Source: an uncultured Gemmatimonadota bacterium (lineage in GTDB: Bacteria; GCA-2686955). Taken from it: a stretch of 20,000 bases of DNA. The number at the start of each line of letters is the position of its first letter. Position 1 is the stretch's first letter. Below, piece after piece: positions 499-9,389 of this stretch. The translations under genes were made by a program, and so were the position numbers. The notes beneath the pieces are model-generated. The model was given only the letters and a program-made list of their open reading frames with translations, did not search any database and had not been told where the DNA came from. The DNA lies in contig CAZBBK010000023.1 in assembly GCA_964490075.1 (NCBI GenBank), positions 51,490 through 71,489 of the forward strand, in the 5' to 3' direction.

Positions 499-912
499 TC
501 AGGCCGGGGGCGATTGCTTCGGGGCGAGACGGAAGAGCGCGATGGTCGCGTGCGTGCGCCGGCATGCGTCGGGCGCGGCATCGGGCGCGGGATGAGCCGA
601 TCGACTCGACTGGTTGGCGGCGGCGACCAGCATCTGGGCGCGCGGCACCGGCGCGAAAGGGCAATGATCGTGGCCGTGATCGTCTTCGGCCGGCTCGGTC
701 CCGGCGATCCACGGGCCGGCGCCCGATTCGGCGAATGGCGAATCCTCGTGCGCCGCGCCGCCGTGGACGATCTCGCCGTGCTCGGCGCAGTGGGTGTGCG
801 AGATGGCGATGTAGTGGAGTGTGGGCCCGACGCTGGCCCAGACCATGAGCAGAGCCAGCAGCGTGGAGGCTGCCCGCGTTCGACTCGATCTGCGGCTGAT
901 TGATGAGGACAT
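499..912 (-). CDS. Small secreted His-rich protein, DUF2946-like (137 aa), with Pro-rich C-terminus
   Basis: Trimmed from ORF 499..1041 to the ATG at 912 (MSSSISRR). Basic N-terminus, hydrophobic stretch LLALLMVWASVG, motifs HxHCAEHGE and HGHDHC, and C-terminal LAPKQSPPA. Sits upstream of a metal-uptake barrel on the same strand. Confidence 0.7.
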   Translation of the reverse strand: MSSSISRRSSRTRAASTLLALLMVWASVGPTLHYIAISHTHCAEHGEIVHGGAAHEDSPFAESGAGPWIAGTEPAEDDHGHDHCPFAPVPRAQMLVAAANQSSRSAHPAPDAAPDACRRTHATIALFRLAPKQSPPA

Positions 913-989
913 GGGATCGGCTACCGGCTCATCCACGGAACATCCTACGTCCTTGCCTCGTTGCCTTCCAGTGCCCTTACTCTTGTTCC

Positions 990-3900
990 ATGATCTGGCC
1001 ACTCTCCCCGACCTTTCGCCCCCGCCGCCACGGACCCTCACTCCGGGCTCCTCTCGTCAACCTCCGCCGCGCCGCCCTGGCCGCCGCGTTGGCGCTCGCC
1101 GCGACCCGAACGCACGCCGACTTCCCGGACGATCCCCCCAACGACCCGGACTGGGCTCGGGCGGAAGAGGCGTTTCCGGAAGGAGATTTCTGGGACCAGA
1201 GCTGGAAACACTACAGCCAGAAGACTCTCTATGCTCCCCATCTTCCCCATCCGGGTGCGCGCACCGATCTGGCCTGGAAGCGCACCACCGGGCGCTGGGA
1301 CGTGCCGATCGCCATCGTCGACTCGGGCGCCTACTGGGATCGGCCCGATGTCGTGGAGAAGTTGTGGCTGAACCCCGGCGAGCTGCCGGTGCCCGAGGTC
1401 GGCGCGGCCCGCACCGTCGCGGGAGTTGGACGCTCGCGCGAGATCGCTCGTCCGCTGCCCGCCGATCGTCCGCCGTCGACCGCCGAGCTGGCCGAGCGGC
1501 TGGAAGAGATGGGAATCGAGCTGGAAGGCGTCGCCGCCGCCGCGCTCGATCCCGAAGGCGACTTCAGCGGCGGCTGGCCGCCGCTTCCCTATGCCGCCGA
1601 GCAGGCCTACCTGGCTCGGCCCCTGGGCCGGCGGTCCCGCCAGCGCGCGCCTGCCGCGGCGCGTCCCCTTCCCCCCGGTCTGTCGCTCGGCGCCCACGAC
1701 GTGAACGGAGACGGTCGCTTCAACGTGCGTGACTACGACGGCGACCCACGGGTCGGCGACGTCAACGACAACGGCATCATCGATCCGCAGGATCTGATCC
1801 TGCTCTTCTCGGACGGCGTCGACGACGACGGCAACGGCTACCAAGACGATATCTCCGGGTGGGATTTCTGGGAGCGCGACAACGACGCTTACGACGACAC
1901 CCGCTTCGGTCACGGCAACGGCGGGGCGCACGACTCCGCGGCCGAAGGAAACAACGCCATCGGCGGCATCGGCTCTTGCCCAGACTGCTCGGTGATTCAG
2001 CTGCGGGTGGCCGACAGTTTCATCGCCGACGGCAACGACGTGGCGCTTGCTTTCGCCTACGCCGCCGACATCGGCGCCCGGGTGATCGGTTCGTCATTGG
2101 GCGCTCTGTCGAATCCGCGGGCGGCGCGCGATGCGCTGGTCTACGCGACCGAGCAAGGAATCGTCACGGTCGCCAGCTTCGCCGACGAGAACAGCATCCA
2201 CCACAATCTGCCCACCCTCTACGACCAGACCATCGCCACCAGCGCGATCGGTGCCGACAACGTCAACGTGGGTGAGGTACTGCCTTTCACCAGCTTCGAG
2301 GCCAAGAACAACTGCACCAACTATGGCGCGCGGCTGGACCTGCTGATCCCGGCGCAGTACTGCTCTTCGGAAGCGACGGCCACCGCCGCCGGTCATCTCG
2401 GTCTCTTGATCAGCTACGCCGAGGACCTGGTCGCGCGCGGTCGGCTCGATCGCTCGCTCAGCGTCAACGAGGCGAAGCAGGTGGTGCTGCAGACGGCGAA
2501 CGACGTCAATCCACTGCCCTTGCCCTGGCGCTGGCCGGGCGGCCCGAGATGGGACCAAGTGCACGGCTACGGCCGGATCGACATGGAGGCCGCCCTGGCG
2601 TGTGTGGCGAACGAGACGATTCCGCCGGAGGTCGACATCGGTGCGCCCGGCTGGTTCGTGACGATCGATCCGGGCAGCGACGCCCCGCTCGAGATCGTCG
2701 GGCGGATCGCCGCCGAACGATCGTCCGGCTACCAGTACGATCTGCGCTGGGGATGGGGGGTCTGCCCGAGACGCTGGCACACCATCACCGAGTCGCCCTG
2801 GTTGGGGGCTCCGACCGAGGGCGTGCTCGGCACCTGGCGCATGCACGATCTGCGTCGCAAACGCTCGCGCGGAGTCGCCGATCGACCGAACCGTTTCGCG
2901 CTCACTCTGTGGGCGCGGGCCTGGGACGCCGGTGGAATTCTGGGCGAGGATCGGGTACAGATTTTCCTCCACGAGGACCCCGATCTGCACGTCGCGTTTC
3001 CGGTCGAGCTCGGCGCTTCCGGCGAGTCGCCGCCGCTCTTCGCCGATCTCGACGGCGACGGCGCGGATGAAATCGTGGTGGCCACGGCCGACGGCTGGGT
3101 GCACGCCCTGAACGCGGGCGGCGATGAGCTGCCCGGCTTTCCGCTGCGCACCCGCCTGCAGCCCGAGTCCGATCCCGCCGATCCCGGCAACCACCTCGAC
3201 GCCGCCGCTTTCGCGTCGGGCGCCGTGCCGCCGATCCACGGCGGCGTGGAAGGCGCTGTGTCGTGCGCCGATCTCGATGCCGACGGAACGCTAGAGCTGG
3301 TGGCGGCCACGCTCGATGGCTGGGTCGAGGTGTGGGGGAGAGACGGCGCACCGCGACCCGGCTTTCCGGTGCGCACCGATCCCGAACTGTCGCGGATCCG
3401 CTCACCGTCGCGGATCATCGACGACGGGATCGGCGGGGCGCCGGTGCTTGCCGATCTGGACGGCGACGGCACGCGCGAGATTCTGGTCGGGGCCTTCGAT
3501 GGACATCTCTACGCCTGGCACCACGACGGCGCCGCGATGTCGGGCTTCCCCTTGCCGGTTCTCGACGAATCCGAAGACGAGCCCACGCCATCGCGCATCA
3601 TTTCGACACCGGCCGTGGGCGACCTCGACGGCGACGGCCAGGTCGAGATCGTGGTCGGCAGCAACGAGGTCTATCGCAACATCGGGCGCCTGCACGCGCT
3701 CGAGATCGATGGACAGGCGCTTCCCGGCTGGCCGGTGGAGCCGCTGGGGTTCTACGCCGATCTGCTGCGCTGGATCGGACGCGGCATTCCCAGCTCGCCG
3801 GTGCTGGCCGATGTGACCGCCGACGGCACGCTCGAAGTCGTCGTGAGCTCGATTCTGGGTCGGACCTACGTCTATGAGACCGATGGTCGCGAGATCGCCG

Positions 3901-4508
3901 AGACCGACGTGGCGCGCATCGGACCGTTCAGCGAGAGCCTCGATATTCCGACGCTTTCACACTTGAACAGTGTCGCGGTCGGCGACATGGACGGCGACGG
4001 GACGCTCGATGTGGCCGGTGCGGGGGCCGGATTCCGCTGGGCATTGTCGCAGCTCTTCGCCGGTTACTACGTTCCCCACGACTACCACGCCACGCTGCAC
4101 GATTTGTCCACCGGGGAGTTTCATCCGCATTTTCCACGCGCCATCGACGGACACACTTTTCTGGGGAACCCGGCGCTCGCCGATCTAGACGGCGACGATC
4201 AACCCGAGATGGTGCTGGGCAGCGGCGCCTACCTGCTGCACGCCTTCGACCACCGCGGGCGGGAGCCCCAAGGCTGGCCGAAGGGGACCGGCGGCTGGGT
4301 GATCGCGGCGCCGGCGATCGGCGATCTGGATGGCGACGGCCGCTTCGACGTGGCGGCGGTGACGCGCGAGGGATGGCTCTGGGCCTGGCGCGCGAGCGGA
4401 CCGGCCGGCGCCGAGAGCGCGCCCTGGCCGACCTTCCACCACGACCCGGCGCGCACCGGGAACCTGCGGGAGGCGACGCGGGTCGAGGGGCGGCGATTGT
4501 TACGTTAG
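990..4508 (+). CDS. Secreted S8 (subtilisin-like) serine peptidase with a C-terminal FG-GAP/VCBS-repeat beta-propeller
   Basis: Signal-like RRAALAAALALAATRTHA. Triad motifs IAIVDSG (Asp 1320), FGHGNG (His 1911) and CSSEAT (Ser 2367), plus GYGRID. Eight (A/G)D-x-x-x-D-(G/D) repeats. Start uncertain: ATG 990 chosen over 900. Confidence 0.85.
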   Translation: MIWPLSPTFRPRRHGPSLRAPLVNLRRAALAAALALAATRTHADFPDDPPNDPDWARAEEAFPEGDFWDQSWKHYSQKTLYAPHLPHPGARTDLAWKRTTGRWDVPIAIVDSGAYWDRPDVVEKLWLNPGELPVPEVGAARTVAGVGRSREIARPLPADRPPSTAELAERLEEMGIELEGVAAAALDPEGDFSGGWPPLPYAAEQAYLARPLGRRSRQRAPAAARPLPPGLSLGAHDVNGDGRFNVRDYDGDPRVGDVNDNGIIDPQDLILLFSDGVDDDGNGYQDDISGWDFWERDNDAYDDTRFGHGNGGAHDSAAEGNNAIGGIGSCPDCSVIQLRVADSFIADGNDVALAFAYAADIGARVIGSSLGALSNPRAARDALVYATEQGIVTVASFADENSIHHNLPTLYDQTIATSAIGADNVNVGEVLPFTSFEAKNNCTNYGARLDLLIPAQYCSSEATATAAGHLGLLISYAEDLVARGRLDRSLSVNEAKQVVLQTANDVNPLPLPWRWPGGPRWDQVHGYGRIDMEAALACVANETIPPEVDIGAPGWFVTIDPGSDAPLEIVGRIAAERSSGYQYDLRWGWGVCPRRWHTITESPWLGAPTEGVLGTWRMHDLRRKRSRGVADRPNRFALTLWARAWDAGGILGEDRVQIFLHEDPDLHVAFPVELGASGESPPLFADLDGDGADEIVVATADGWVHALNAGGDELPGFPLRTRLQPESDPADPGNHLDAAAFASGAVPPIHGGVEGAVSCADLDADGTLELVAATLDGWVEVWGRDGAPRPGFPVRTDPELSRIRSPSRIIDDGIGGAPVLADLDGDGTREILVGAFDGHLYAWHHDGAAMSGFPLPVLDESEDEPTPSRIISTPAVGDLDGDGQVEIVVGSNEVYRNIGRLHALEIDGQALPGWPVEPLGFYADLLRWIGRGIPSSPVLADVTADGTLEVVVSSILGRTYVYETDGREIAETDVARIGPFSESLDIPTLSHLNSVAVGDMDGDGTLDVAGAGAGFRWALSQLFAGYYVPHDYHATLHDLSTGEFHPHFPRAIDGHTFLGNPALADLDGDDQPEMVLGSGAYLLHAFDHRGREPQGWPKGTGGWVIAAPAIGDLDGDGRFDVAAVTREGWLWAWRASGPAGAESAPWPTFHHDPARTGNLREATRVEGRRLLR
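3040..4370 (+). repeat. Eight FG-GAP-type Ca-binding protein repeats within the S8 gene
   Basis: ADLDGDGADEIVV, ADLDADGTLELVA, ADLDGDGTREILV, GDLDGDGQVEIVV, ADVTADGTLEVVV, GDMDGDGTLDVA, ADLDGDDQPEMVL and GDLDGDGRFDVAA, often followed by PG(F/W)P. Confidence 0.85.
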
Positions 4509-4569: not shown

Positions 4570-5433
4570 ATGTTCTCCACCGCCCGCTCCCTGCTCTTCC
4601 GCCCCCGCGCCACCGTCGAGATTCTGGCGCCGGGCGTGCAACGGCTGCGCCTGAGCAACCGCTTTCTGCGGCCGATGGGATTCGATGTCGAGCTCTTCCT
4701 GGTCGACGAGCTCCTGGTCGACTCCGGCCACCGGCACCAGTCGTCCGAGGTTCTGGCGCTGCTCGCGGAGCGCCCGCTGCGCGCGCTCGCCCTGACCCAC
4801 CACCACGAGGATCACAGCGGCAACGCCGGCTTGATCGCCGCCCGTCACGGGTGCCCGATCTACCTGGCGAGGCCGGAGCTGCGCGCCACCGAAGGCGTCG
4901 GAGGACTGCCGCTCTACCGCCGCTTCTGGTGGGGCTGGCCGGCTCCCTACCGGCCCGAGCCGATGCCTGCCGAGCTCGACACCGGCGCCCGCGCCCTGCT
5001 CGCTCTGCCGACTCCGGGGCATTCGGCGACCCACAGCGTGTTCTTCGACCCCGATTCCCGTCTCGCCCTGGTCGGCGACCTCTTTCTGTCGGAACGCCTG
5101 ACGCCGGTGATGCGCCAGGAGCGGCCGGCACTGCTCGCGGCGTCGCTGCGGCGCCTGGCGAAGCTGCGGCCGCGGCGCATCGCCAACGCCCACGGCAAGG
5201 TGATCGACGATCCCGAGCCGCTTCTGCACCTCAAGGCCGATCGACTCGACGCCGCCGCCGAGCGGGTGCGCTCTCTGCACCGGGCCGGCGTGGGCGAGGC
5301 CGAGATCGTCGCCCGGGTGATCCCGGCGCCCTCGCGGCACGACCGTTTCAGCGAGTGGATGAGCCAGGGAGATTACAGCTACCGCTGCTTCGTGCGAGGC
5401 TGTCTTCACCACGACTCGACGCCAGATTCGTGA
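4570..5433 (+). CDS. MBL-fold metallo-hydrolase
   Basis: LVDSG, THHHEDHSG (HxHxDH), TPGHS, VGDL and AHG metal-ligand motifs. Confidence 0.9.
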   Translation: MFSTARSLLFRPRATVEILAPGVQRLRLSNRFLRPMGFDVELFLVDELLVDSGHRHQSSEVLALLAERPLRALALTHHHEDHSGNAGLIAARHGCPIYLARPELRATEGVGGLPLYRRFWWGWPAPYRPEPMPAELDTGARALLALPTPGHSATHSVFFDPDSRLALVGDLFLSERLTPVMRQERPALLAASLRRLAKLRPRRIANAHGKVIDDPEPLLHLKADRLDAAAERVRSLHRAGVGEAEIVARVIPAPSRHDRFSEWMSQGDYSYRCFVRGCLHHDSTPDS

Positions 5434-5873
5434 CCGAGCCGTGCTTGGCTCCACGGTTCGATGCGATCCGGCTCGGCTCGGCGGCGTACGACCTGAGTCG
5501 GTCGTACGCGAGCGCCGGCGAAGTCTCCAAGCAGTCCGCTGCTCTCGAAGTACGTCGACATATCGTGACGAGAGCGCTCGGGCACTGTCCCGATCGAGTC
5601 GGTGCCGCCATGCTCGACTCTGCCCGCTGCGGCCTTGAGCTCGGCGAGGCAGAGAAGTCAGGTTCGCTTTGTGAGGCTGTGATAGAGGACTTCTCCACAT
5701 TCCTCGACGACTGGGAGTGCGAAGACGATCTCCTGCTCGAGGAGGAGGAGATCGCACTTCAGCACCTGATCGACGCAATCGATCTGTTGCTGGAGATCCG
5801 TGGTGGTGAAGCCGACGAGATCGGCGAGCTGAGAAGGAGGTGTTTGAAATTGAAATCGCTTTGTGACGAGTAG
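5430..5873 (+). CDS. Hypothetical helical (TPR-like) protein with an acidic C-terminal half, 147 aa
   Basis: The GTG at 5430 overlaps the TGA of the MBL gene (GTGA), suggesting translational coupling. It is the C-terminal part of ORF 4851..5873 and has protein-like composition, unlike the R/P/G-rich shadow sequence upstream. Confidence 0.65.
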   Translation: MTEPCLAPRFDAIRLGSAAYDLSRSYASAGEVSKQSAALEVRRHIVTRALGHCPDRVGAAMLDSARCGLELGEAEKSGSLCEAVIEDFSTFLDDWECEDDLLLEEEEIALQHLIDAIDLLLEIRGGEADEIGELRRRCLKLKSLCDE

Positions 5874-5920
5874 GATGGCCAGTAGAACGTCGGACCGAAG
5901 GGCCTTGTGCGCGGCTGTCT

Positions 5921-7387
5921 TCAGCAGCCCCGACCCTCCCCCGCGCCCAGGCCATCCTCCACCCCCATCCGCCACTGAAAGAGCACCGCGGTGACCGCCG
6001 CCGCGACGTTGAGGCTGTCGATCGCTCCGAACTGGGGGATGTCGACCAGTAGATCGGCCTCCGCGCGCAGCAGGGCCGGCAGACCCTCCGCCTCGGCGCC
6101 GGCGACGAAGAGCGGTCGTGGGGGATAGGGGGCGCGGTGGTAGGGGATGCTGGCGGGGGTTTGCTGGATGGCGACGATTTGATGGTCGCCCTCGCGGGCG
6201 GCGCGCAGCAAAGCTCGGGAATCGGCGAGGGCGGTGATCGGCAGCACCTGTTCGACGCCGCGTGACGCGGCGCGCTGCAGATCTCCTCTGCCGACCAGGA
6301 AGAGCCGGCTCAGGCCTGCCGCGTCGGCGCTGCGGGCCGCCACGCCGAGGTTGACGTCGAGGCGCGGCTGGCAGAGCGCGAGGGCGGCGTGGAGGCGGCG
6401 CGGGGGCAGTGCGGGAGCGGAGGGCGGGCCTTCGCGCAGGCCGTAGGGCGGCGTGGCGGAGCGGTCGGCGGCGCGGGGATGGGACCCGTGGCGCTGCGCC
6501 ATTCTGGCGGCGTCGAGCTCGCCGCCGCGAGCGCGGGCCGCCAGCCAGGCGACCCCGGGGTCGGGGTCGGCCAGCAAGGTGGGGAGGAGATCGTCGGCCG
6601 GGGCCAGGGCGCGGGCGAGGGCCGCACGCACCCGCGGATCGGCGTCCGCCGCCAGCTCCCGGCCGAGGTCGCCGTCGATGCCCTGCGCCCGAGCCAGCCC
6701 CCAGACCGCCGCGATCCGGTGATCGGTGGCCAGCAGCGTGCACAGCGCGCCGCGATCGGCCAGGTGGTCGAGGGCGGTCGGGTCGCCTGCGAGGGCGCGC
6801 TCGGCGAGCTCGGGCGAGGTCGGATCGAGCGCCGCCAGGAGCCGCAGCAGCGGTTCCGGGGGCGGCCGGTGCGCCGGTAGCGCTCGCCGGACCAGATCGG
6901 GATCGAGGGCGGCCAGACTTCCGGCGTCGCAGATCAACTCCGCCGCCCGCTCGGCGACTGCTCGATCGGGGTCGAGCAGGGCGCGCGCCAGCACCGCGGC
7001 CGGCGTCGCCGGGCCGAGGATCGCCCGCCGGACGCGGGGCGAGGGATCGTCGAGGACGCTCAGAGCCAGCTCCTCGTCGCCCGGCGACTGGGCCGCCAGC
7101 AGGCGGGCCGCGACGGCGCGCGCGCGTGAGGAATGAGCACCCGAGCGGTTGTGGGTGGTGCGCACCAGGGCGGCGCGGGTGCGCCCGACCGGCAGCTCCC
7201 AGAGGATCCGCTCGGCACGGCGCCGCGCCACGCGGCGGGGGGCCTCGAGCAGTCCGATCAACTGCTTCACCAGCGCCGCGTCGGCATGTGCCAGGAGAAA
7301 GGCGAGCGCCGCCTCGCGCCGCGCCGGATCTTCGCCGTGCAGCGCTTCGTCGAGGGCTTCGGATGGGGTGAGGTCGGACAAGGGCAT
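5921..7387 (-). CDS. HEAT-repeat protein fused to a C-terminal SpoU/TrmH-family (SPOUT) RNA 2'-O-methyltransferase
   Basis: HEAT-like repeats (EDPARREAAL, DDPSPRVRRAI, DPDRAVAERAA, DADPRVRAALARAL, DPDPGVAWLAA). All three SpoU motifs are present: NLGVAARSADAAG, FVAGAEAEGL and IPQFGAIDSLNVAAA. Confidence 0.88.
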   Translation of the reverse strand: MPLSDLTPSEALDEALHGEDPARREAALAFLLAHADAALVKQLIGLLEAPRRVARRRAERILWELPVGRTRAALVRTTHNRSGAHSSRARAVAARLLAAQSPGDEELALSVLDDPSPRVRRAILGPATPAAVLARALLDPDRAVAERAAELICDAGSLAALDPDLVRRALPAHRPPPEPLLRLLAALDPTSPELAERALAGDPTALDHLADRGALCTLLATDHRIAAVWGLARAQGIDGDLGRELAADADPRVRAALARALAPADDLLPTLLADPDPGVAWLAARARGGELDAARMAQRHGSHPRAADRSATPPYGLREGPPSAPALPPRRLHAALALCQPRLDVNLGVAARSADAAGLSRLFLVGRGDLQRAASRGVEQVLPITALADSRALLRAAREGDHQIVAIQQTPASIPYHRAPYPPRPLFVAGAEAEGLPALLRAEADLLVDIPQFGAIDSLNVAAAVTAVLFQWRMGVEDGLGAGEGRGC

Positions 7388-7446
7388 GAGCGGACCCTTC
7401 GGATGTGCCGGGTGTGCCGCGCGCCGGCCCTGCGGAGAATGCTACC

Positions 7447-7510
7447 TGCTATGCTCCGCCCTCGCGGCCGCTCGCCCGTCGAGAGCAGCCCTCGTCGCCA
7501 ATCATGGGAG
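7447..7510 (+). promoter_or_regulatory. Candidate extended -10 promoter (TGcTATGCT) and RBS for the sulfatase-like operon
   Basis: TG-n-TATGCT at 7447-7455 in the divergent intergenic region. GGGAG at 7506-7510 is 7 nt before the ATG at 7518. Confidence 0.4.
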
Positions 7511-7517
7511 TGCCTCG

Positions 7518-9389
7518 ATGATGGAGAAACCGGCAGACCGGCGCAGCCCACGTTCCGGTGGAGTGGCGCGGCGCGCGCTCGCCGGTCTCGGCCCCACACT
7601 GCTCCTGGGCCTGGTCGGGGGCCTGTGCGCCGGTGGTCTGTTGCTGCAGAAGGAACACTACTGGGCGCTGGGGCTCGATCATCTCGCGCGGGCTCATTTT
7701 GTCGACGAGCTGAATCGCGTCGTCTTGCTGGCGGCCCTGGCCGAGCTCGCCGCCCGCGCGGCGACCCTCGTCGTGCGCTGGCTGGTCGCCGATCCCCTTC
7801 GCATCGCCGCGGTGCGCGCGGGGCTGCGCCTGTGGTTCTTCGGATCCGCGGCGCTGCTGTTGTGGATCAACCACGCCCCGTGGTTCCCGGCCTCGCGCAG
7901 CGGCCCGGGGCTCAAGTGGAACGGGATCATCCTCCTGGTCCTGGGACTGGGGGCCCTGGCCTGCGCACTGCTCTCCAGCCGTCCGCTCTGGACGCGTGTT
8001 TGCGGCGCCGTTCGCGACACGGTTCGTATGTCGCGGGTCGCCGCCGCCAGCGCGATCTCGATCGGAGCCCTCAACCTCGCCGCGCTTGGCGCTCCGGCCG
8101 CCCAGGGACCGCCGGTGATCCTGGTGTCGATGGACACCCTGCGTTGGGACTACGTGAGCGCGCTAGGAGGGCCGGAGGGCACCACGCCGAATATCGACGC
8201 TCTGGCGCGCGACGGCGTCGCTTTCCAAAACGCCATTTCGCAGGCCGCCTGGACCTTGCCCTCTCATATGTCGCTCTTCACCGGCCAGCACCCGTCGCGC
8301 CACGCGGTGGTTCACAAGTTCGCCCGACTCGACAGAACGCGCTCGGTGATGCTGGCCGAGCTGCTCGCCAACGCCGGATACCGCAGCGCTGCCTTCACCA
8401 GCGGCGGCTATGTCGGCGATGAGTTCGGATTCGCGCGCGGCTTCGACTCCTACCGGCTGATTCCGATCGGCTGGTTCCCGGTGACGATTCGCGATTGGCT
8501 GTCGAAGCGTTCGCGCGATCCCTTTTTGCTCTTTCTGCACAACTACTCGATTCACAATTACTGGGCGCCGGATGAGCTCTTCGCGAGCGAAGGAGTCGAA
8601 CAGCGGCCGGGGTTGAGTGATTTCGATACAGAGATTCGCGAACTGGTCATCCGCTATCAACAGGAGCCGGTGACCGGCGATGTGCTGGGCGACGAGATCG
8701 CGCACCTGAAGGAGCGCTATCGTCTGGCGACCCGCCACCTGGATGCGCAGCTGGGCCAGGTGTTGGGCTGGCTGCGAGAGCTGGATCTCTACGATCAGAG
8801 CTTGATCGTGGTGTTCTCCGATCACGGTGAGGAGTTCGGAGAGCACGGCCACACTTTTCACCGGCAGAGCCTCTACGAGGAGATGGTGCACGTGCCCCTG
8901 GTCGTGAAGTTCCCCGCGGGGCACCACGCCGGCCGACGGGTCGAGCGCGCCGTGCAGCTTGTCGATCTCTTTCCCACCGTGCTGGCGGAGGCCGGAGTGG
9001 AAGCGCCGGATGGGGTGCAGATCGATGGGGCGGGGTTGCAGCAGCTGCTAGACCAGCCGGGTGACTGGGATCCGGACCGCGGCGCCTTCTCCGAGCTCTA
9101 CTACCAGGGCTCGGCGGTGGCCCTTCGGAACGGATCGTCCAAGCTGCTCTACAAGTCGCCAGCGGACGGCGGCGCAGCGCAGCTGGAGCTCTTCGATCTC
9201 GGCAACGACCCGGGCGAGCAACAGAATCTCGCGGCGGACGACCCGGCGCTCGAATCTCGGCTCGTCGAAGAGCTGCTGCGGAGATTCCACGGCGCACGCG
9301 CGGCCAGGCTCACACGTTCGACCGGCCGCTCACCCGCCATCGATCCGGCCACCCAGCGTCGCCTGGAAGCTCTGGGCTACATGGACTGA
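7518..9389 (+). CDS. Membrane-anchored sulfatase-like hydrolase/transferase (alkaline phosphatase superfamily)
   Basis: Several N-terminal hydrophobic helices; ILVSMDTLRWD, WTLPSHMSLFTG, FSDHGEEF, LFDLGNDPGEQQNL and C-terminal LEALGY. Start trimmed to the RBS-supported ATG at 7518. Confidence 0.88.
   Translation: MMEKPADRRSPRSGGVARRALAGLGPTLLLGLVGGLCAGGLLLQKEHYWALGLDHLARAHFVDELNRVVLLAALAELAARAATLVVRWLVADPLRIAAVRAGLRLWFFGSAALLLWINHAPWFPASRSGPGLKWNGIILLVLGLGALACALLSSRPLWTRVCGAVRDTVRMSRVAAASAISIGALNLAALGAPAAQGPPVILVSMDTLRWDYVSALGGPEGTTPNIDALARDGVAFQNAISQAAWTLPSHMSLFTGQHPSRHAVVHKFARLDRTRSVMLAELLANAGYRSAAFTSGGYVGDEFGFARGFDSYRLIPIGWFPVTIRDWLSKRSRDPFLLFLHNYSIHNYWAPDELFASEGVEQRPGLSDFDTEIRELVIRYQQEPVTGDVLGDEIAHLKERYRLATRHLDAQLGQVLGWLRELDLYDQSLIVVFSDHGEEFGEHGHTFHRQSLYEEMVHVPLVVKFPAGHHAGRRVERAVQLVDLFPTVLAEAGVEAPDGVQIDGAGLQQLLDQPGDWDPDRGAFSELYYQGSAVALRNGSSKLLYKSPADGGAAQLELFDLGNDPGEQQNLAADDPALESRLVEELLRRFHGARAARLTRSTGRSPAIDPATQRRLEALGYMD

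What the first reader, a model, noticed from the sequence alone, without database searches (positions are those of the whole stretch)
5921..7387. Bacterial HEAT-repeat + SpoU methyltransferase with a eukaryote-like (Trm3/TARBP1) architecture
Seen: about 290 aa of HEAT-like repeats, a Pro-rich linker, then an intact SpoU domain (about 6395-5960) in one continuous frame, with the motif-1 Asn/Arg, motif-2 Glu and SLNV retained. Known: bacterial SpoU enzymes are usually bare (TrmH/TrmL) or carry a small L30-like or PUA domain, while eukaryotic Gm18 enzymes Trm3/TARBP1 have a long helical-repeat N-terminus and a C-terminal SPOUT domain. The segment IVAIQQTPAS...YP...GAEAEGLPA.L...D..VDIPQFG.I.SLNV also resembles the Trm3/TARBP1 C-terminus as I recall it (EQT-x-x-S, IPQxG rather than IPMxG); this is unverified. 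Inference: a solenoid-guided RNA 2'-O-methyltransferase with a new target or partner, either convergent with or related to Trm3.
Basis: partly seen in the sequence, partly recalled or inferred. Interest (0 to 1): 0.72.

Follow-up and report, generated by a model that had tools for sequence, protein, structure and literature searches.

The report
Bacterial HEAT-repeat SpoU RNA methyltransferase
This is a real, conserved bacterial gene that joins a 300-residue helical-repeat arm to an intact TrmH-type RNA ribose methyltransferase, an arrangement otherwise known from the much larger eukaryotic enzymes Trm3/TARBP1 and most likely invented independently.

Summary
Window 5921-7387 (-) encodes a 488-aa protein: a HEAT-type alpha-solenoid (residues 8-299), a conserved Pro-rich linker (300-331) and a SpoU/SPOUT domain (332-485) with all three catalytic motifs invariant across the family. 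It is neither a chimera nor a one-off. One search found 55 protein clusters. Full-length copies sit in about 33 species-level MAGs, mostly labelled Myxococcota or Bradymonadia, plus a Dehalococcoidia branch. In a bootstrapped tree the HEAT-SpoU proteins form one clade (100/99). That clade nests among bare, roughly 180-aa TrmH-like enzymes (98/89). The combined group is sister to the clade holding eukaryotic TARBP1 (97/89). RlmB-type proteins and E. coli TrmH fall outside. So the catalytic domain does belong to the TrmH/Trm3 subfamily, and it shares the IPQxG and (E/Q)QT signatures. The solenoid shows no similarity to the TARBP1 N-terminus (hhalign 0.6%) and looks like ordinary bacterial HEAT_2 repeats, so the shared architecture is most likely convergent. 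The RNA target is untested. tRNA G18 is the best guess, but other TrmH-like paralogs co-occur. It is an uncharacterised new variant of a known kind, of moderate interest.

The parts
5921..7387 (-). Whole coding sequence of the HEAT-SpoU protein (488 aa plus stop)
   Evidence: ORF list and translation. Full-length homologs at 39-61% identity. GC3 0.87 against GC2 0.57. One 14.5-kb contig of run X1 covers 5800-7500 with 0 differences.
6491..7366 (-). HEAT-type alpha-solenoid, residues 8-299 (21 helices in antiparallel pairs, about 10 repeats)
   Evidence: AlphaFold2 pLDDT mostly 95-98 over this part. HEAT_2 matched in 41 of 43 family members. Internal repeat: residues 121-269 against 2-140, hhalign probability 85%. 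Fold matches are YibA (Z 14.1), designed armadillo and alphaRep proteins, and karyopherins.
6395..6490 (-). Pro-rich linker, residues 300-331, with a family-wide motif (H303, S310, A311, P314, G316)
   Evidence: Translation. S310, P314 and G316 are invariant, and H303 and A311 are conserved in at least 90% of 43 sequences. pLDDT 67-80.
5933..6394 (-). SpoU/SPOUT methyltransferase domain, residues 332-485 (Pfam envelope 335-469 = nt 5981-6385)
   Evidence: Pfam 72.2 bits. Foldseek matches to SpoU structures, with 2ha8_A at TM 0.75 normalised by target length. hhalign against the TARBP1 C-domain: 99.3%, E 1e-20.
6314..6352 (-). SpoU motif 1, NLGVAARSADAAG (N346, G348, R352, S353 invariant)
6083..6100 (-). 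SpoU motif 2, GAEAEG (G430, E432, G435 invariant)
6005..6040 (-). SpoU motif 3, IPQFGAIDSLNV (P451, G454, I456, D457, S458, L459, N460, V461 invariant)
   Evidence: IPQ is shared with the bare sister clade and TARBP1, where E. coli TrmH, RlmB and TrmL have IPM.

Best explanation
The gene encodes an active S-adenosylmethionine-dependent RNA ribose 2'-O-methyltransferase of the TrmH/Trm3 branch of the SpoU (SPOUT) family. A bacterial HEAT_2-type solenoid of about 300 residues plus a conserved linker was fused once, in bacteria, to the N-terminus of a bare TrmH-like enzyme. The fusion has since been kept in Myxococcota-like lineages, in the window's own small phylum and in some Dehalococcoidia.

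Shown here: the domain order, the invariant catalytic motifs, the single origin of the fusion, and its placement among bare TrmH-like enzymes next to the TARBP1 clade.

Inferred: the enzyme acts as a SPOUT homodimer. The solenoid and linker take over the substrate-docking role that the short N- and C-terminal helices play in bare TrmH. The HEAT-SpoU proteins, like TARBP1, have almost no C-terminal extension.

The substrate is tRNA, most likely G18 in the D-loop, possibly for a subset of tRNAs. I put tRNA at about 55% and G18 specifically at about 35%. The likeness to Trm3/TARBP1 is shared subfamily descent of the catalytic domain plus convergent recruitment of a helical-repeat arm.
For: - Domain and motifs: Pfam SpoU at 72.2 bits. 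N346, G348, R352, S353, G430, E432, G435 and P451...S458-L-N460-V461 are invariant in 43 of 43 sequences.
- Structure: confident two-domain model, pLDDT 91.1, pTM 0.80.
- Spread of the family: 55 clusters; 31 representative clusters at E < 1e-30; 3 of the 5 species genomes of the window's phylum; about 33 species-level loci plus 6 Dehalococcoidia loci.
- Careful tree of 87 rows: the 22 HEAT-SpoU rows form one clade (100/99); with 20 bare proteins the support is 98/89; joined to the TARBP1-holding clade it is 97/89; the RlmB/YfiF-type clade stands apart (99/97).
- The bare sisters P0100 and P0111 have Gm18 enzymes among their best PDB hits. For P0100 these are Aquifex TrmH (3.9e-17), Thermus TrmH (1.3e-16) and TARBP1 (1.5e-15). 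For P0111 they are TARBP1 (1.5e-13) and E. coli TrmH (2e-11).
- Median C-terminal extension is 7 residues in HEAT-SpoU and 8 in TARBP1, against 15.5 in the bare sisters and 66 in E. coli TrmH. The IPQ and (E/Q)Q signatures are shared.
- Solenoid against the TARBP1 N-terminus: hhalign 0.6%.
- The solenoid's best fold match is E. coli YibA, Z 14.1.
Against: - No activity or substrate has been tested.
- NCBIfam's TrmH equivalog scores only 27.4 bits against a cut-off of 227, and RlmB scores higher at 42.8 bits.
- The best PDB sequence hit is an RlmB-like Sinorhizobium protein, 5kzk, at 9e-13.
- E. coli TrmH itself falls outside the 62-row clade, in an unresolved position.
- The genome has a second TrmH-like candidate, L002, whose best PDB hit is Thermus TrmH at 2.4e-16. 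In addition, 4 of the 5 other carrier genomes examined hold a P0185-like paralog whose best NCBIfam match is TrmH. The fusion is therefore not needed to explain Gm18.
- The solenoid is not basic (median net charge -3, range -10 to +4), and many of its conserved Arg sit at HEAT-consensus positions, so RNA binding by the solenoid is not shown.
- The clade base is a long branch (0.52), and the tree rows were chosen as best hits to the query, which enriches for near relatives.
Confidence: 0.55

Rival explanations
1. Neofunctionalised paralog. The catalytic domain descends from TrmH-like enzymes, but the solenoid has redirected it to another site or another RNA, such as an rRNA position or a different tRNA position. 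A separate TrmH-like paralog makes Gm18.
For: - TrmH-like paralogs co-occur: L002 in this genome and a P0185-like paralog in 4 of the 5 other carrier genomes examined.
- A long branch of 0.52 sits at the base of the HEAT-SpoU clade.
- The family-specific invariant linker motif and the loss of the C-terminal extension point to a changed mode of substrate binding.
- RlmB is the top NCBIfam match and 5kzk the top PDB match.
Against: - The tree puts the clade inside TrmH-like proteins and away from the RlmB type (99/97).
- Trm3/TARBP1 shows that a long solenoid and the absence of a C-terminal extension are compatible with Gm18 (passages of PMC9508554).
- No positive evidence points to any particular alternative target.
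Confidence: 0.3
2. Shared ancestry of the whole architecture with Trm3/TARBP1. A single solenoid-SPOUT fusion gave rise to both, passing either from a bacterial lineage into early eukaryotes or by later transfer, and the N-terminal arms have since diverged beyond recognition.
For: - The two lie in the same 62-row clade (97/89).
- They share the IPQxG and (E/Q)QT signatures and the lack of a C-terminal extension.
- The tree constrained to hold HEAT-SpoU and TARBP1 together is worse by 31.6 lnL, but at p-AU 0.065 it is not rejected at 5%.
- TARBP1's methyltransferase domain is the top Foldseek match.
Against: - 20 bare bacterial proteins sit between the two groups in the best tree (98/89).
- The TARBP1-side clade also has bare prokaryote-sized relatives.
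- The N-terminal profiles show no similarity (0.6%).
- 0 of 43 members match PF25050.
- The arm is about 300 residues here, against 1100-1800 in TARBP1.
- The AU grouping was named after the tree had been seen.
Confidence: 0.07
3. The solenoid is a protein-docking or regulatory module (tethering the enzyme to a partner protein or the ribosome, or autoinhibiting it) and not an RNA-binding arm. This can hold together with either target hypothesis.
For: - The solenoid's net charge is about neutral to acidic (median -3).
- The closest fold matches are protein-binding HEAT or ARM scaffolds such as karyopherins, the PP2A-A type and adaptins.
- The conserved Arg residues mostly sit in HEAT-consensus positions.
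Against: - No conserved partner gene lies next to it. The neighbours conserved in many Myxococcota are nucleoside-salvage genes.
- pTM 0.80 for the full-length model suggests the arm packs in a fixed way against the catalytic domain.
- From recall, HEAT-like repeats can bind nucleic acid (AlkD, exportins). A 'predicted DNA alkylation repair enzyme' (2b6c) and the exportin-5:pre-miRNA complex (3a6p) do appear among the fold matches at Z 8.0 and 9.4, values the tool rates as possibly only a common arrangement.
Confidence: 0.25
4. Assembly chimera or one-off gene fusion.
For: None found.
Against: - Full-length homologs with the same domain order occur on many independent contigs and assemblies.
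- The linker is conserved across the family.
- A single contig covers the gene with no differences in run X1. Identical overlapping pieces across the linker occur in X2 (6243-6487) and X3 (6308-6458 and 6467-6874). All four runs belong to one study, and X1 may be the source of this DNA.
Confidence: 0.01

Closest known systems
Bare bacterial TrmH (tRNA Gm18 2'-O-methyltransferase; Thermus thermophilus 1v2x and Aquifex aeolicus 1zjr type)
   Same: It has the SPOUT/SpoU catalytic domain with the same three motifs. The nearest relatives of the HEAT-SpoU clade are roughly 160-200-aa proteins, and TrmH enzymes are among their best solved matches.
   Different: TrmH has only short N- and C-terminal helices, about 20 residues each (passages of PMC9508554 and PMC1829167). 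Here about 330 residues of solenoid and linker precede the domain, and only about 7 residues follow it. The NCBIfam TrmH model is far below cut-off.
Eukaryotic Trm3 / TARBP1 (tRNA Gm18 methyltransferase with a long helical N-terminus)
   Same: Both have an N-terminal helical-repeat arm, a C-terminal SpoU domain and no C-terminal extension. Their catalytic domains lie in the same supported clade (97/89) and share the IPQxG and (E/Q)QT signatures. Identity to the Gefionella protein is 33% over 138 residues.
   Different: The arm is about 300 residues here, against 1100-1800. The arms show no detectable sequence similarity, and there is no Pfam TARBP1 domain. Bare bacterial enzymes are closer relatives than TARBP1. 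This protein is bacterial.
RlmB / TsnR / YfiF-type SpoU enzymes (L30e-like substrate-binding N-domain)
   Same: They are SpoU enzymes with an N-terminal RNA-recognition domain. RlmB is the top NCBIfam match and 5kzk the top PDB sequence match.
   Different: This protein has no SpoU_sub_bind/L30e domain. It lies outside the RlmB-type clade (99/97) and has IPQ where that clade has IPM.
Bacterial HEAT_2 / PBS-lyase-type repeat proteins (E. coli YibA 1oyz, CpcE/F)
   Same: The solenoid's best structural match is YibA (Z 14.1, rmsd 7.6, 233 aligned), and CpcE/F gives Z 11.4 at rmsd 3.4 over 145 residues. HEAT_2 matches 41 of 43 members.
   Different: Those proteins stand alone or act as lyase subunits, and none is fused to a SPOUT domain. 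For helical repeats, Z values of this size may reflect only a common arrangement (note).

Membership tests
SpoU/TrmH-class SPOUT methyltransferases (Pfam PF00588) | Profile match above the curated cut-off | tested here: met
   72.2 bits against 29.7, residues 335-469. 43 of 43 family members match.
SpoU/TrmH-class SPOUT methyltransferases (Pfam PF00588) | Three conserved motifs with the catalytic Arg and Asn (motif 1), Glu (motif 2) and S-L-N (motif 3) | tested here: met
   N346, R352, E432, S458 and N460 are invariant in 43 of 43 sequences. Which residue does what is recalled from the TrmH literature, not tested here.
SpoU/TrmH-class SPOUT methyltransferases (Pfam PF00588) | Alpha/beta SPOUT fold | tested here: met
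   Foldseek matches to 2ha8, 7edc, 1v2x, 1gz0 and others at E about 1e-6, with TM up to 0.75-0.77 normalised by target length. The trefoil knot itself was not checked.
SpoU/TrmH-class SPOUT methyltransferases (Pfam PF00588) | Homodimer with the active site at the interface | not tested
   The complex-prediction job (two copies) could not be run.
SpoU/TrmH-class SPOUT methyltransferases (Pfam PF00588) | SAM-dependent 2'-O-methyl transfer to RNA | not testable with these tools
   Needs an enzyme assay.
TrmH (tRNA Gm18 methyltransferase, NCBIfam NF008295) | Equivalog profile above cut-off | tested here: not met
   27.4 bits against 227. The model is built on the E. coli type; the bare sister proteins also fail it.
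TrmH (tRNA Gm18 methyltransferase, NCBIfam NF008295) | Phylogenetic placement with characterised TrmH enzymes | tested here: inconclusive
   The clade nests among bare proteins whose best PDB hits include Aquifex, Thermus and E. coli TrmH. E. coli TrmH, the only characterised TrmH in the tree, falls outside the clade in an unresolved position.
TrmH (tRNA Gm18 methyltransferase, NCBIfam NF008295) | Catalytic domain flanked only by short N- and C-terminal helices | tested here: not met
   Median N-extension is 319 residues and median C-extension 7 in the 22 HEAT-SpoU rows.
Trm3/TARBP1 | SpoU domain inside the Trm3/TARBP1 clade | tested here: not met
   In the best tree it lies in the sister group, with 20 bare bacterial proteins closer. 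The constrained sister grouping is 31.6 lnL worse, p-AU 0.065, so it is not formally excluded.
Trm3/TARBP1 | TARBP1 N-terminal domain (Pfam PF25050), or homology of the long N-terminal arm | tested here: not met
   0 of 43 members match PF25050 at E <= 0.001. hhalign of the N-terminal profiles gives probability 0.6%, E 0.09, over 19 columns.
RlmB (NCBIfam TIGR00186) | Equivalog profile above cut-off, and an L30e-like SpoU_sub_bind N-domain | tested here: not met
   42.8 bits against 160.15. No PF08032 match. It lies outside the RlmB-type clade, 99/97.
HEAT repeat proteins (Pfam PF13646 / PF02985) | Repeat profile match and an antiparallel two-helix repeat solenoid | tested here: met
   This protein alone is below cut-off, but 41 of 43 relatives match HEAT_2. 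The model has 21 paired helices. An internal repeat is detected. Fold matches are to HEAT and ARM proteins.

The most novel reading that the evidence does not exclude
The solenoid-plus-SPOUT design of eukaryotic Trm3/TARBP1 was not a eukaryotic invention. On this reading it goes back to a bacterial HEAT-SpoU fusion of the kind kept in Myxococcota-like lineages. The eukaryotic arm later expanded and diverged beyond recognition, which would make this 488-aa protein a living miniature of the ancestor. The borderline AU result (p 0.065), the shared clade, the shared motif signatures and the shared loss of the C-terminal extension leave this open.
Probability: 0.07. Interest if true: 0.8.

Novelty: new variant of a known kind. 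Interest (0 to 1): 0.45.

Why it matters
Reviews describe bacterial TrmH-subfamily enzymes as bare catalytic domains and treat the long helical arm of Trm3/TARBP1 as a eukaryotic peculiarity of unknown role (passages of PMC1829167, PMC5372735 and PMC9508554).

A compact, confidently modelled 488-aa bacterial enzyme with the same layout offers a tractable system. It can be used to ask what a helical-repeat arm adds to a SPOUT methyltransferase: substrate choice, docking or regulation. It is also a clear case for studying convergent domain recruitment.

The family is uncharacterised. No curated NCBIfam model names it. Source names range from 'hypothetical protein' to 'TrmL/HEAT repeat protein'. 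Four full-text searches found no paper on it.

Tried and rejected
- **Chimera or one-off:** rejected.
- **RlmB identity:** suggested by the top NCBIfam and PDB sequence hits, rejected by the tree and by the absence of the L30e-like domain.
- **Foldseek on the full model:** cannot discriminate between SpoU subfamilies. All SpoU structures score about E 1e-6, with TARBP1 only nominally first.
- **ESM Atlas search:** no usable hit.
- **Earlier notes of this scan:** nothing on this sequence, and one unrelated phage SPOUT note.
- **Expression:** no RNA holder listed among the sequencing runs.
- **Promoter and terminator scan of 5700-7700:** no promoter-like site, and one terminator-like hairpin inside the coding sequence, no more than chance.
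- **Homodimer prediction (two copies, alignment A1):** never ran. The queue was full, then the tool was declared unavailable.
- **Careful tree script:** the first run returned no answer and was rerun.
- **Basic RNA-binding stripe on the solenoid:** considered and not adopted as evidence. Net charge is about -3, and the conserved Arg lie in HEAT-consensus positions. Model coordinates could not be inspected.
- **Gene-neighbourhood inference:** gave only nucleoside-salvage neighbours in Myxococcota, with no conserved context for the window's copy.
- **Paper supplements:** none were opened.
Full report
**1. The observation**

Window 5921-7387 holds, on the minus strand, an ATG-started ORF of 488 codons. 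Its third-position GC is 0.87 against 0.57 at second positions. That matches the neighbouring genes (GC3 0.81-0.88), so the frame is coding and the codon usage looks native. The high overall GC of 0.76 comes from an Ala/Arg/Gly/Pro-rich composition.

Pfam finds SpoU_methylase at residues 335-469 (E 6.1e-20, 72.2 bits, cut-off 29.7). In this protein alone, HEAT and HEAT_2 are only sub-threshold. An alignment of 43 family members (A1) shows the three SpoU motifs to be invariant:
- motif 1: N346, G348, R352, S353
- motif 2: G430, E432, G435
- motif 3: P451, G454, I456-D-S-L-N-V461 (coordinates checked)

AlphaFold2 on that alignment gives a confident model (mean pLDDT 91.1, pTM 0.80). It has 21 helices in antiparallel pairs over residues 8-299, a less ordered linker at 300-331, and an alpha/beta domain at 332-485. 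The linker holds 8 prolines in residues 301-334.

**2. A family, not an accident**

The word-indexed search found 55 protein clusters (E <= 1e-3 among the 8000 candidates scored). Most are full length at 39-61% identity, and many already carry precomputed HEAT_2 + SpoU Pfam calls. Source names range from 'hypothetical protein' and 'TrmH family RNA methyltransferase' to 'TrmL/HEAT repeat protein'. The exhaustive HMMER search of 1.84 billion representatives found 1717 proteins at E <= 1e-3, 71 at <= 1e-10 and 31 at <= 1e-30.

Of the 43 aligned members, 43 match SpoU_methylase, 41 match HEAT_2 and 24 match HEAT at E <= 0.001. More distant 400-600-aa forms also carry HEAT_2 + SpoU. These include a branch that maps to Dehalococcoidia genomes.

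In the species-genome collection, 33 loci (L018-L050) encode close relatives, some only in part. They are labelled Myxococcota, Myxococcales, Nannocystaceae, Bradymonadia or 'bacterium', and two are labelled Gemmatimonadetes. Six further loci (L051-L056) are Dehalococcoidia. The window's own phylum holds only 5 species genomes, and 3 of them have the gene. The two without it are 83% and 95% complete.

At read level, one 14.5-kb contig of run X1 (possibly the source of this DNA) covers 5800-7500 with no difference. Runs X2 and X3, from other samples of the same study, hold identical pieces across the linker. A chimera or one-off is excluded.

**3. Where the catalytic domain belongs**

No NCBIfam equivalog passes its cut-off: RlmB scores 42.8 of 160 bits and TrmH 27.4 of 227. 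By plain sequence, the best solved relatives are:
- an RlmB-like Sinorhizobium protein (5kzk, 9e-13)
- the human TARBP1 methyltransferase domain (2ha8, 3.4e-9)
- RlmB (1gz0, 4.7e-8)

Foldseek cannot separate the subfamilies.

I therefore built trees of the SpoU domain from these sources:
- the best 193 proteins
- 16 non-human eukaryotic TARBP1 proteins
- E. coli TrmH, RlmB, TrmL, TrmJ and YfiF, taken from the annotated K-12 record
- the four other SpoU paralogs of this genome

Of the 217 sequences, 214 had the domain and 196 covered at least 85% of it. The 18 partial and 3 domain-less fragments were dropped. The core family was thinned to every third row for the 160-row quick tree and thinned further to 87 rows for a careful tree.

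The careful tree (ultrafast bootstrap / SH-aLRT) gives:
- HEAT-SpoU, 22 rows, is one clade at 100/99.
- With 20 bare proteins of about 160-250 aa, it forms a clade at 98/89.
- This clade is sister to a 19-row clade (95/84) that holds the eukaryotic TARBP1 proteins. The two join at 97/89.
- The RlmB/YfiF/L30e-type clade, which includes the genome's own L001 and L003, is separate (99/97).
- E. coli TrmH and the clade of the genome's own short paralog L002 lie outside, unresolved.

The bare sisters P0100 and P0111 have Gm18 enzymes as best solved matches. For P0100 these are Aquifex TrmH (3.9e-17), Thermus TrmH (1.3e-16) and TARBP1 (1.5e-15). For P0111 they are TARBP1 (1.5e-13) and E. coli TrmH (2e-11).

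Motif comparison agrees with the tree. IPQxG and (E/Q)Q-T are shared by HEAT-SpoU, the bare sisters and TARBP1. E. coli TrmH, RlmB, TrmL and the genome's own L001 and L002 have IPM.

The catalytic domain thus belongs to the TrmH/Trm3 subfamily, which Tkaczuk et al. call COG0566A (passages read). One caveat applies: the rows were chosen as best hits to the query, and E. coli TrmH is the only characterised TrmH in the tree.

**4. Related to Trm3/TARBP1, or convergent?**

The best tree puts bare bacterial enzymes between HEAT-SpoU and TARBP1. Forcing HEAT-SpoU and the TARBP1 clade together costs 31.6 log-likelihood units, with p-AU 0.065. That is disfavoured but not rejected, and the group was named after the tree had been seen.

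The arms themselves give no sign of common origin:
- BLASTP against the 1284-aa Gefionella TARBP1-like protein aligns only the SpoU domain (33% over 138 residues).
- Profile-profile comparison of the two N-terminal alignments gives probability 0.6% (E 0.09, 19 columns). The C-domains give 99.3% (E 1e-20).
- 0 of 43 members match Pfam's TARBP1 domain.

Folded alone, the arm (pLDDT 92.1, pTM 0.81) best matches E. coli YibA (Z 14.1). Next come designed armadillo and alphaRep proteins, PP2A-A-like scaffolds, karyopherins and the CpcE/F lyase. That is the ordinary bacterial HEAT_2/PBS-lyase kind of solenoid, and Z values of this size are common for helical repeats.

The arm also contains an internal duplication, residues 121-269 against 2-140, at probability 85%.

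One further parallel with TARBP1 stands out. HEAT-SpoU proteins have almost no C-terminal extension (median 7 residues, against 8 in TARBP1). The bare sisters have 15.5 and E. coli TrmH has 66. The C-terminal region is needed for tRNA binding in Thermus TrmH (passage of PMC9508554).

I read this as convergent replacement of the short flanking helices by an N-terminal arm, within one enzyme subfamily.

**5. How it most likely works**

Shown:
- an intact SpoU active-site motif set
- a rigid-looking two-domain model
- a family-wide conserved linker motif (H303, S310, A311, P314, G316)
- a single origin of the fusion

Inferred from the family:
- tRNA as substrate, with G18 as the default site by descent

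Evidence against a simple 'Gm18 enzyme' reading:
- The genome also encodes L002, a short SpoU whose best solved match is Thermus TrmH (2.4e-16).
- In 4 of the 5 other carrier genomes examined, a P0185-like paralog is present whose best NCBIfam match is TrmH (113 bits, below cut-off).
- So the fusion may serve a subset of tRNAs or a new site.

Evidence against a simple 'RNA-binding arm' reading:
- The arm's net charge is about neutral (median -3, range -10 to +4).
- 14 of its 50 columns conserved at 90% or more are Arg, but they sit mostly in HEAT-consensus 'VRxxA'-type positions of the second helix of each repeat.
- I could not inspect model coordinates.

**6. Context**

In the window the gene stands alone. 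A 157-codon ORF with no Pfam match converges on its 3' end, and a sulfatase gene diverges from its 5' end. An MBL-fold gene and a 1202-aa S8 protease/FG-GAP gene lie beyond.

In 14-17 of the 26 other loci compared, the gene follows three genes on the same strand: a receiver-domain protein, a pyrimidine-nucleoside phosphorylase and a NupC-type nucleoside transporter. I have no explanation for this. It is absent from the window and from its family relative L018.

**7. Known or new**

Passages of three reviews describe prokaryotic TrmH-subfamily enzymes as catalytic domain only, and describe the long helical N-terminus as the eukaryotic Trm3/TARBP1 exception, with its role unknown (PMC1829167, PMC9508554, PMC5372735).

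Full-text searches for HEAT repeat + SpoU + methyltransferase + Myxococc*, Trm3/TARBP1 + N-terminal domain + HEAT, SPOUT + HEAT repeat + bacteria, and TrmH + solenoid found no paper on a bacterial HEAT-SpoU enzyme. One candidate hit was read and proved unrelated. The library lacks most subscription journals, so this is not proof of absence.

The domain pair is visible in precomputed Pfam calls and in one source's gene names, but the family has no curated model or assigned function.

**Verdict:** a new variant of a known kind, of moderate interest.

Noticed in passing
L021, L024, L025, L028, L029, L032, L033, L035, L038, L041, L043, L044 and others (upstream of the match at about 6001): In 14-17 of the 26 non-window HEAT-SpoU loci, the gene lies directly downstream, on the same strand, of three genes: a pyrimidine-nucleoside phosphorylase, a NupC-type nucleoside transporter, and before those a 650-1050-aa protein with a response-regulator receiver domain. 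The link to an RNA methyltransferase is unexplained.
   Followed up: partly
window 5400-5873 (+): A small ORF converges on the 3' end of the HEAT-SpoU gene, 48 nt from it. It has an acidic C-terminus, lower GC (0.60; GC3 0.70) than its neighbours, and no Pfam match.
   Followed up: partly
window 900-4508 (+): A 1202-aa protein combines a subtilase (Peptidase_S8) domain with several FG-GAP/beta-propeller repeats. An MBL-fold gene follows at 4570-5433.
   Followed up: partly
window about 7500-9389 (+): A sulfatase-family gene (Sulfatase, SGSH_C) with a predicted N-terminal membrane region is transcribed divergently from the HEAT-SpoU gene.
   Followed up: partly
P0153 (456 aa) and P0092 (351 aa), proteins: Other SpoU proteins outside the HEAT-SpoU clade carry long N-terminal extensions (298 and 196 residues) with no Pfam match. 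N-terminal add-ons to bare TrmH-like domains seem to have arisen more than once.
   Followed up: no
G000 (whole genome): The genome sits in a phylum with only 5 species genomes in the collection. Its two closest carriers are labelled 'Gemmatimonadetes' in their records. Its HEAT-SpoU nests within mostly Myxococcota-labelled sequences without shared gene context, which could mean horizontal transfer.
   Followed up: no
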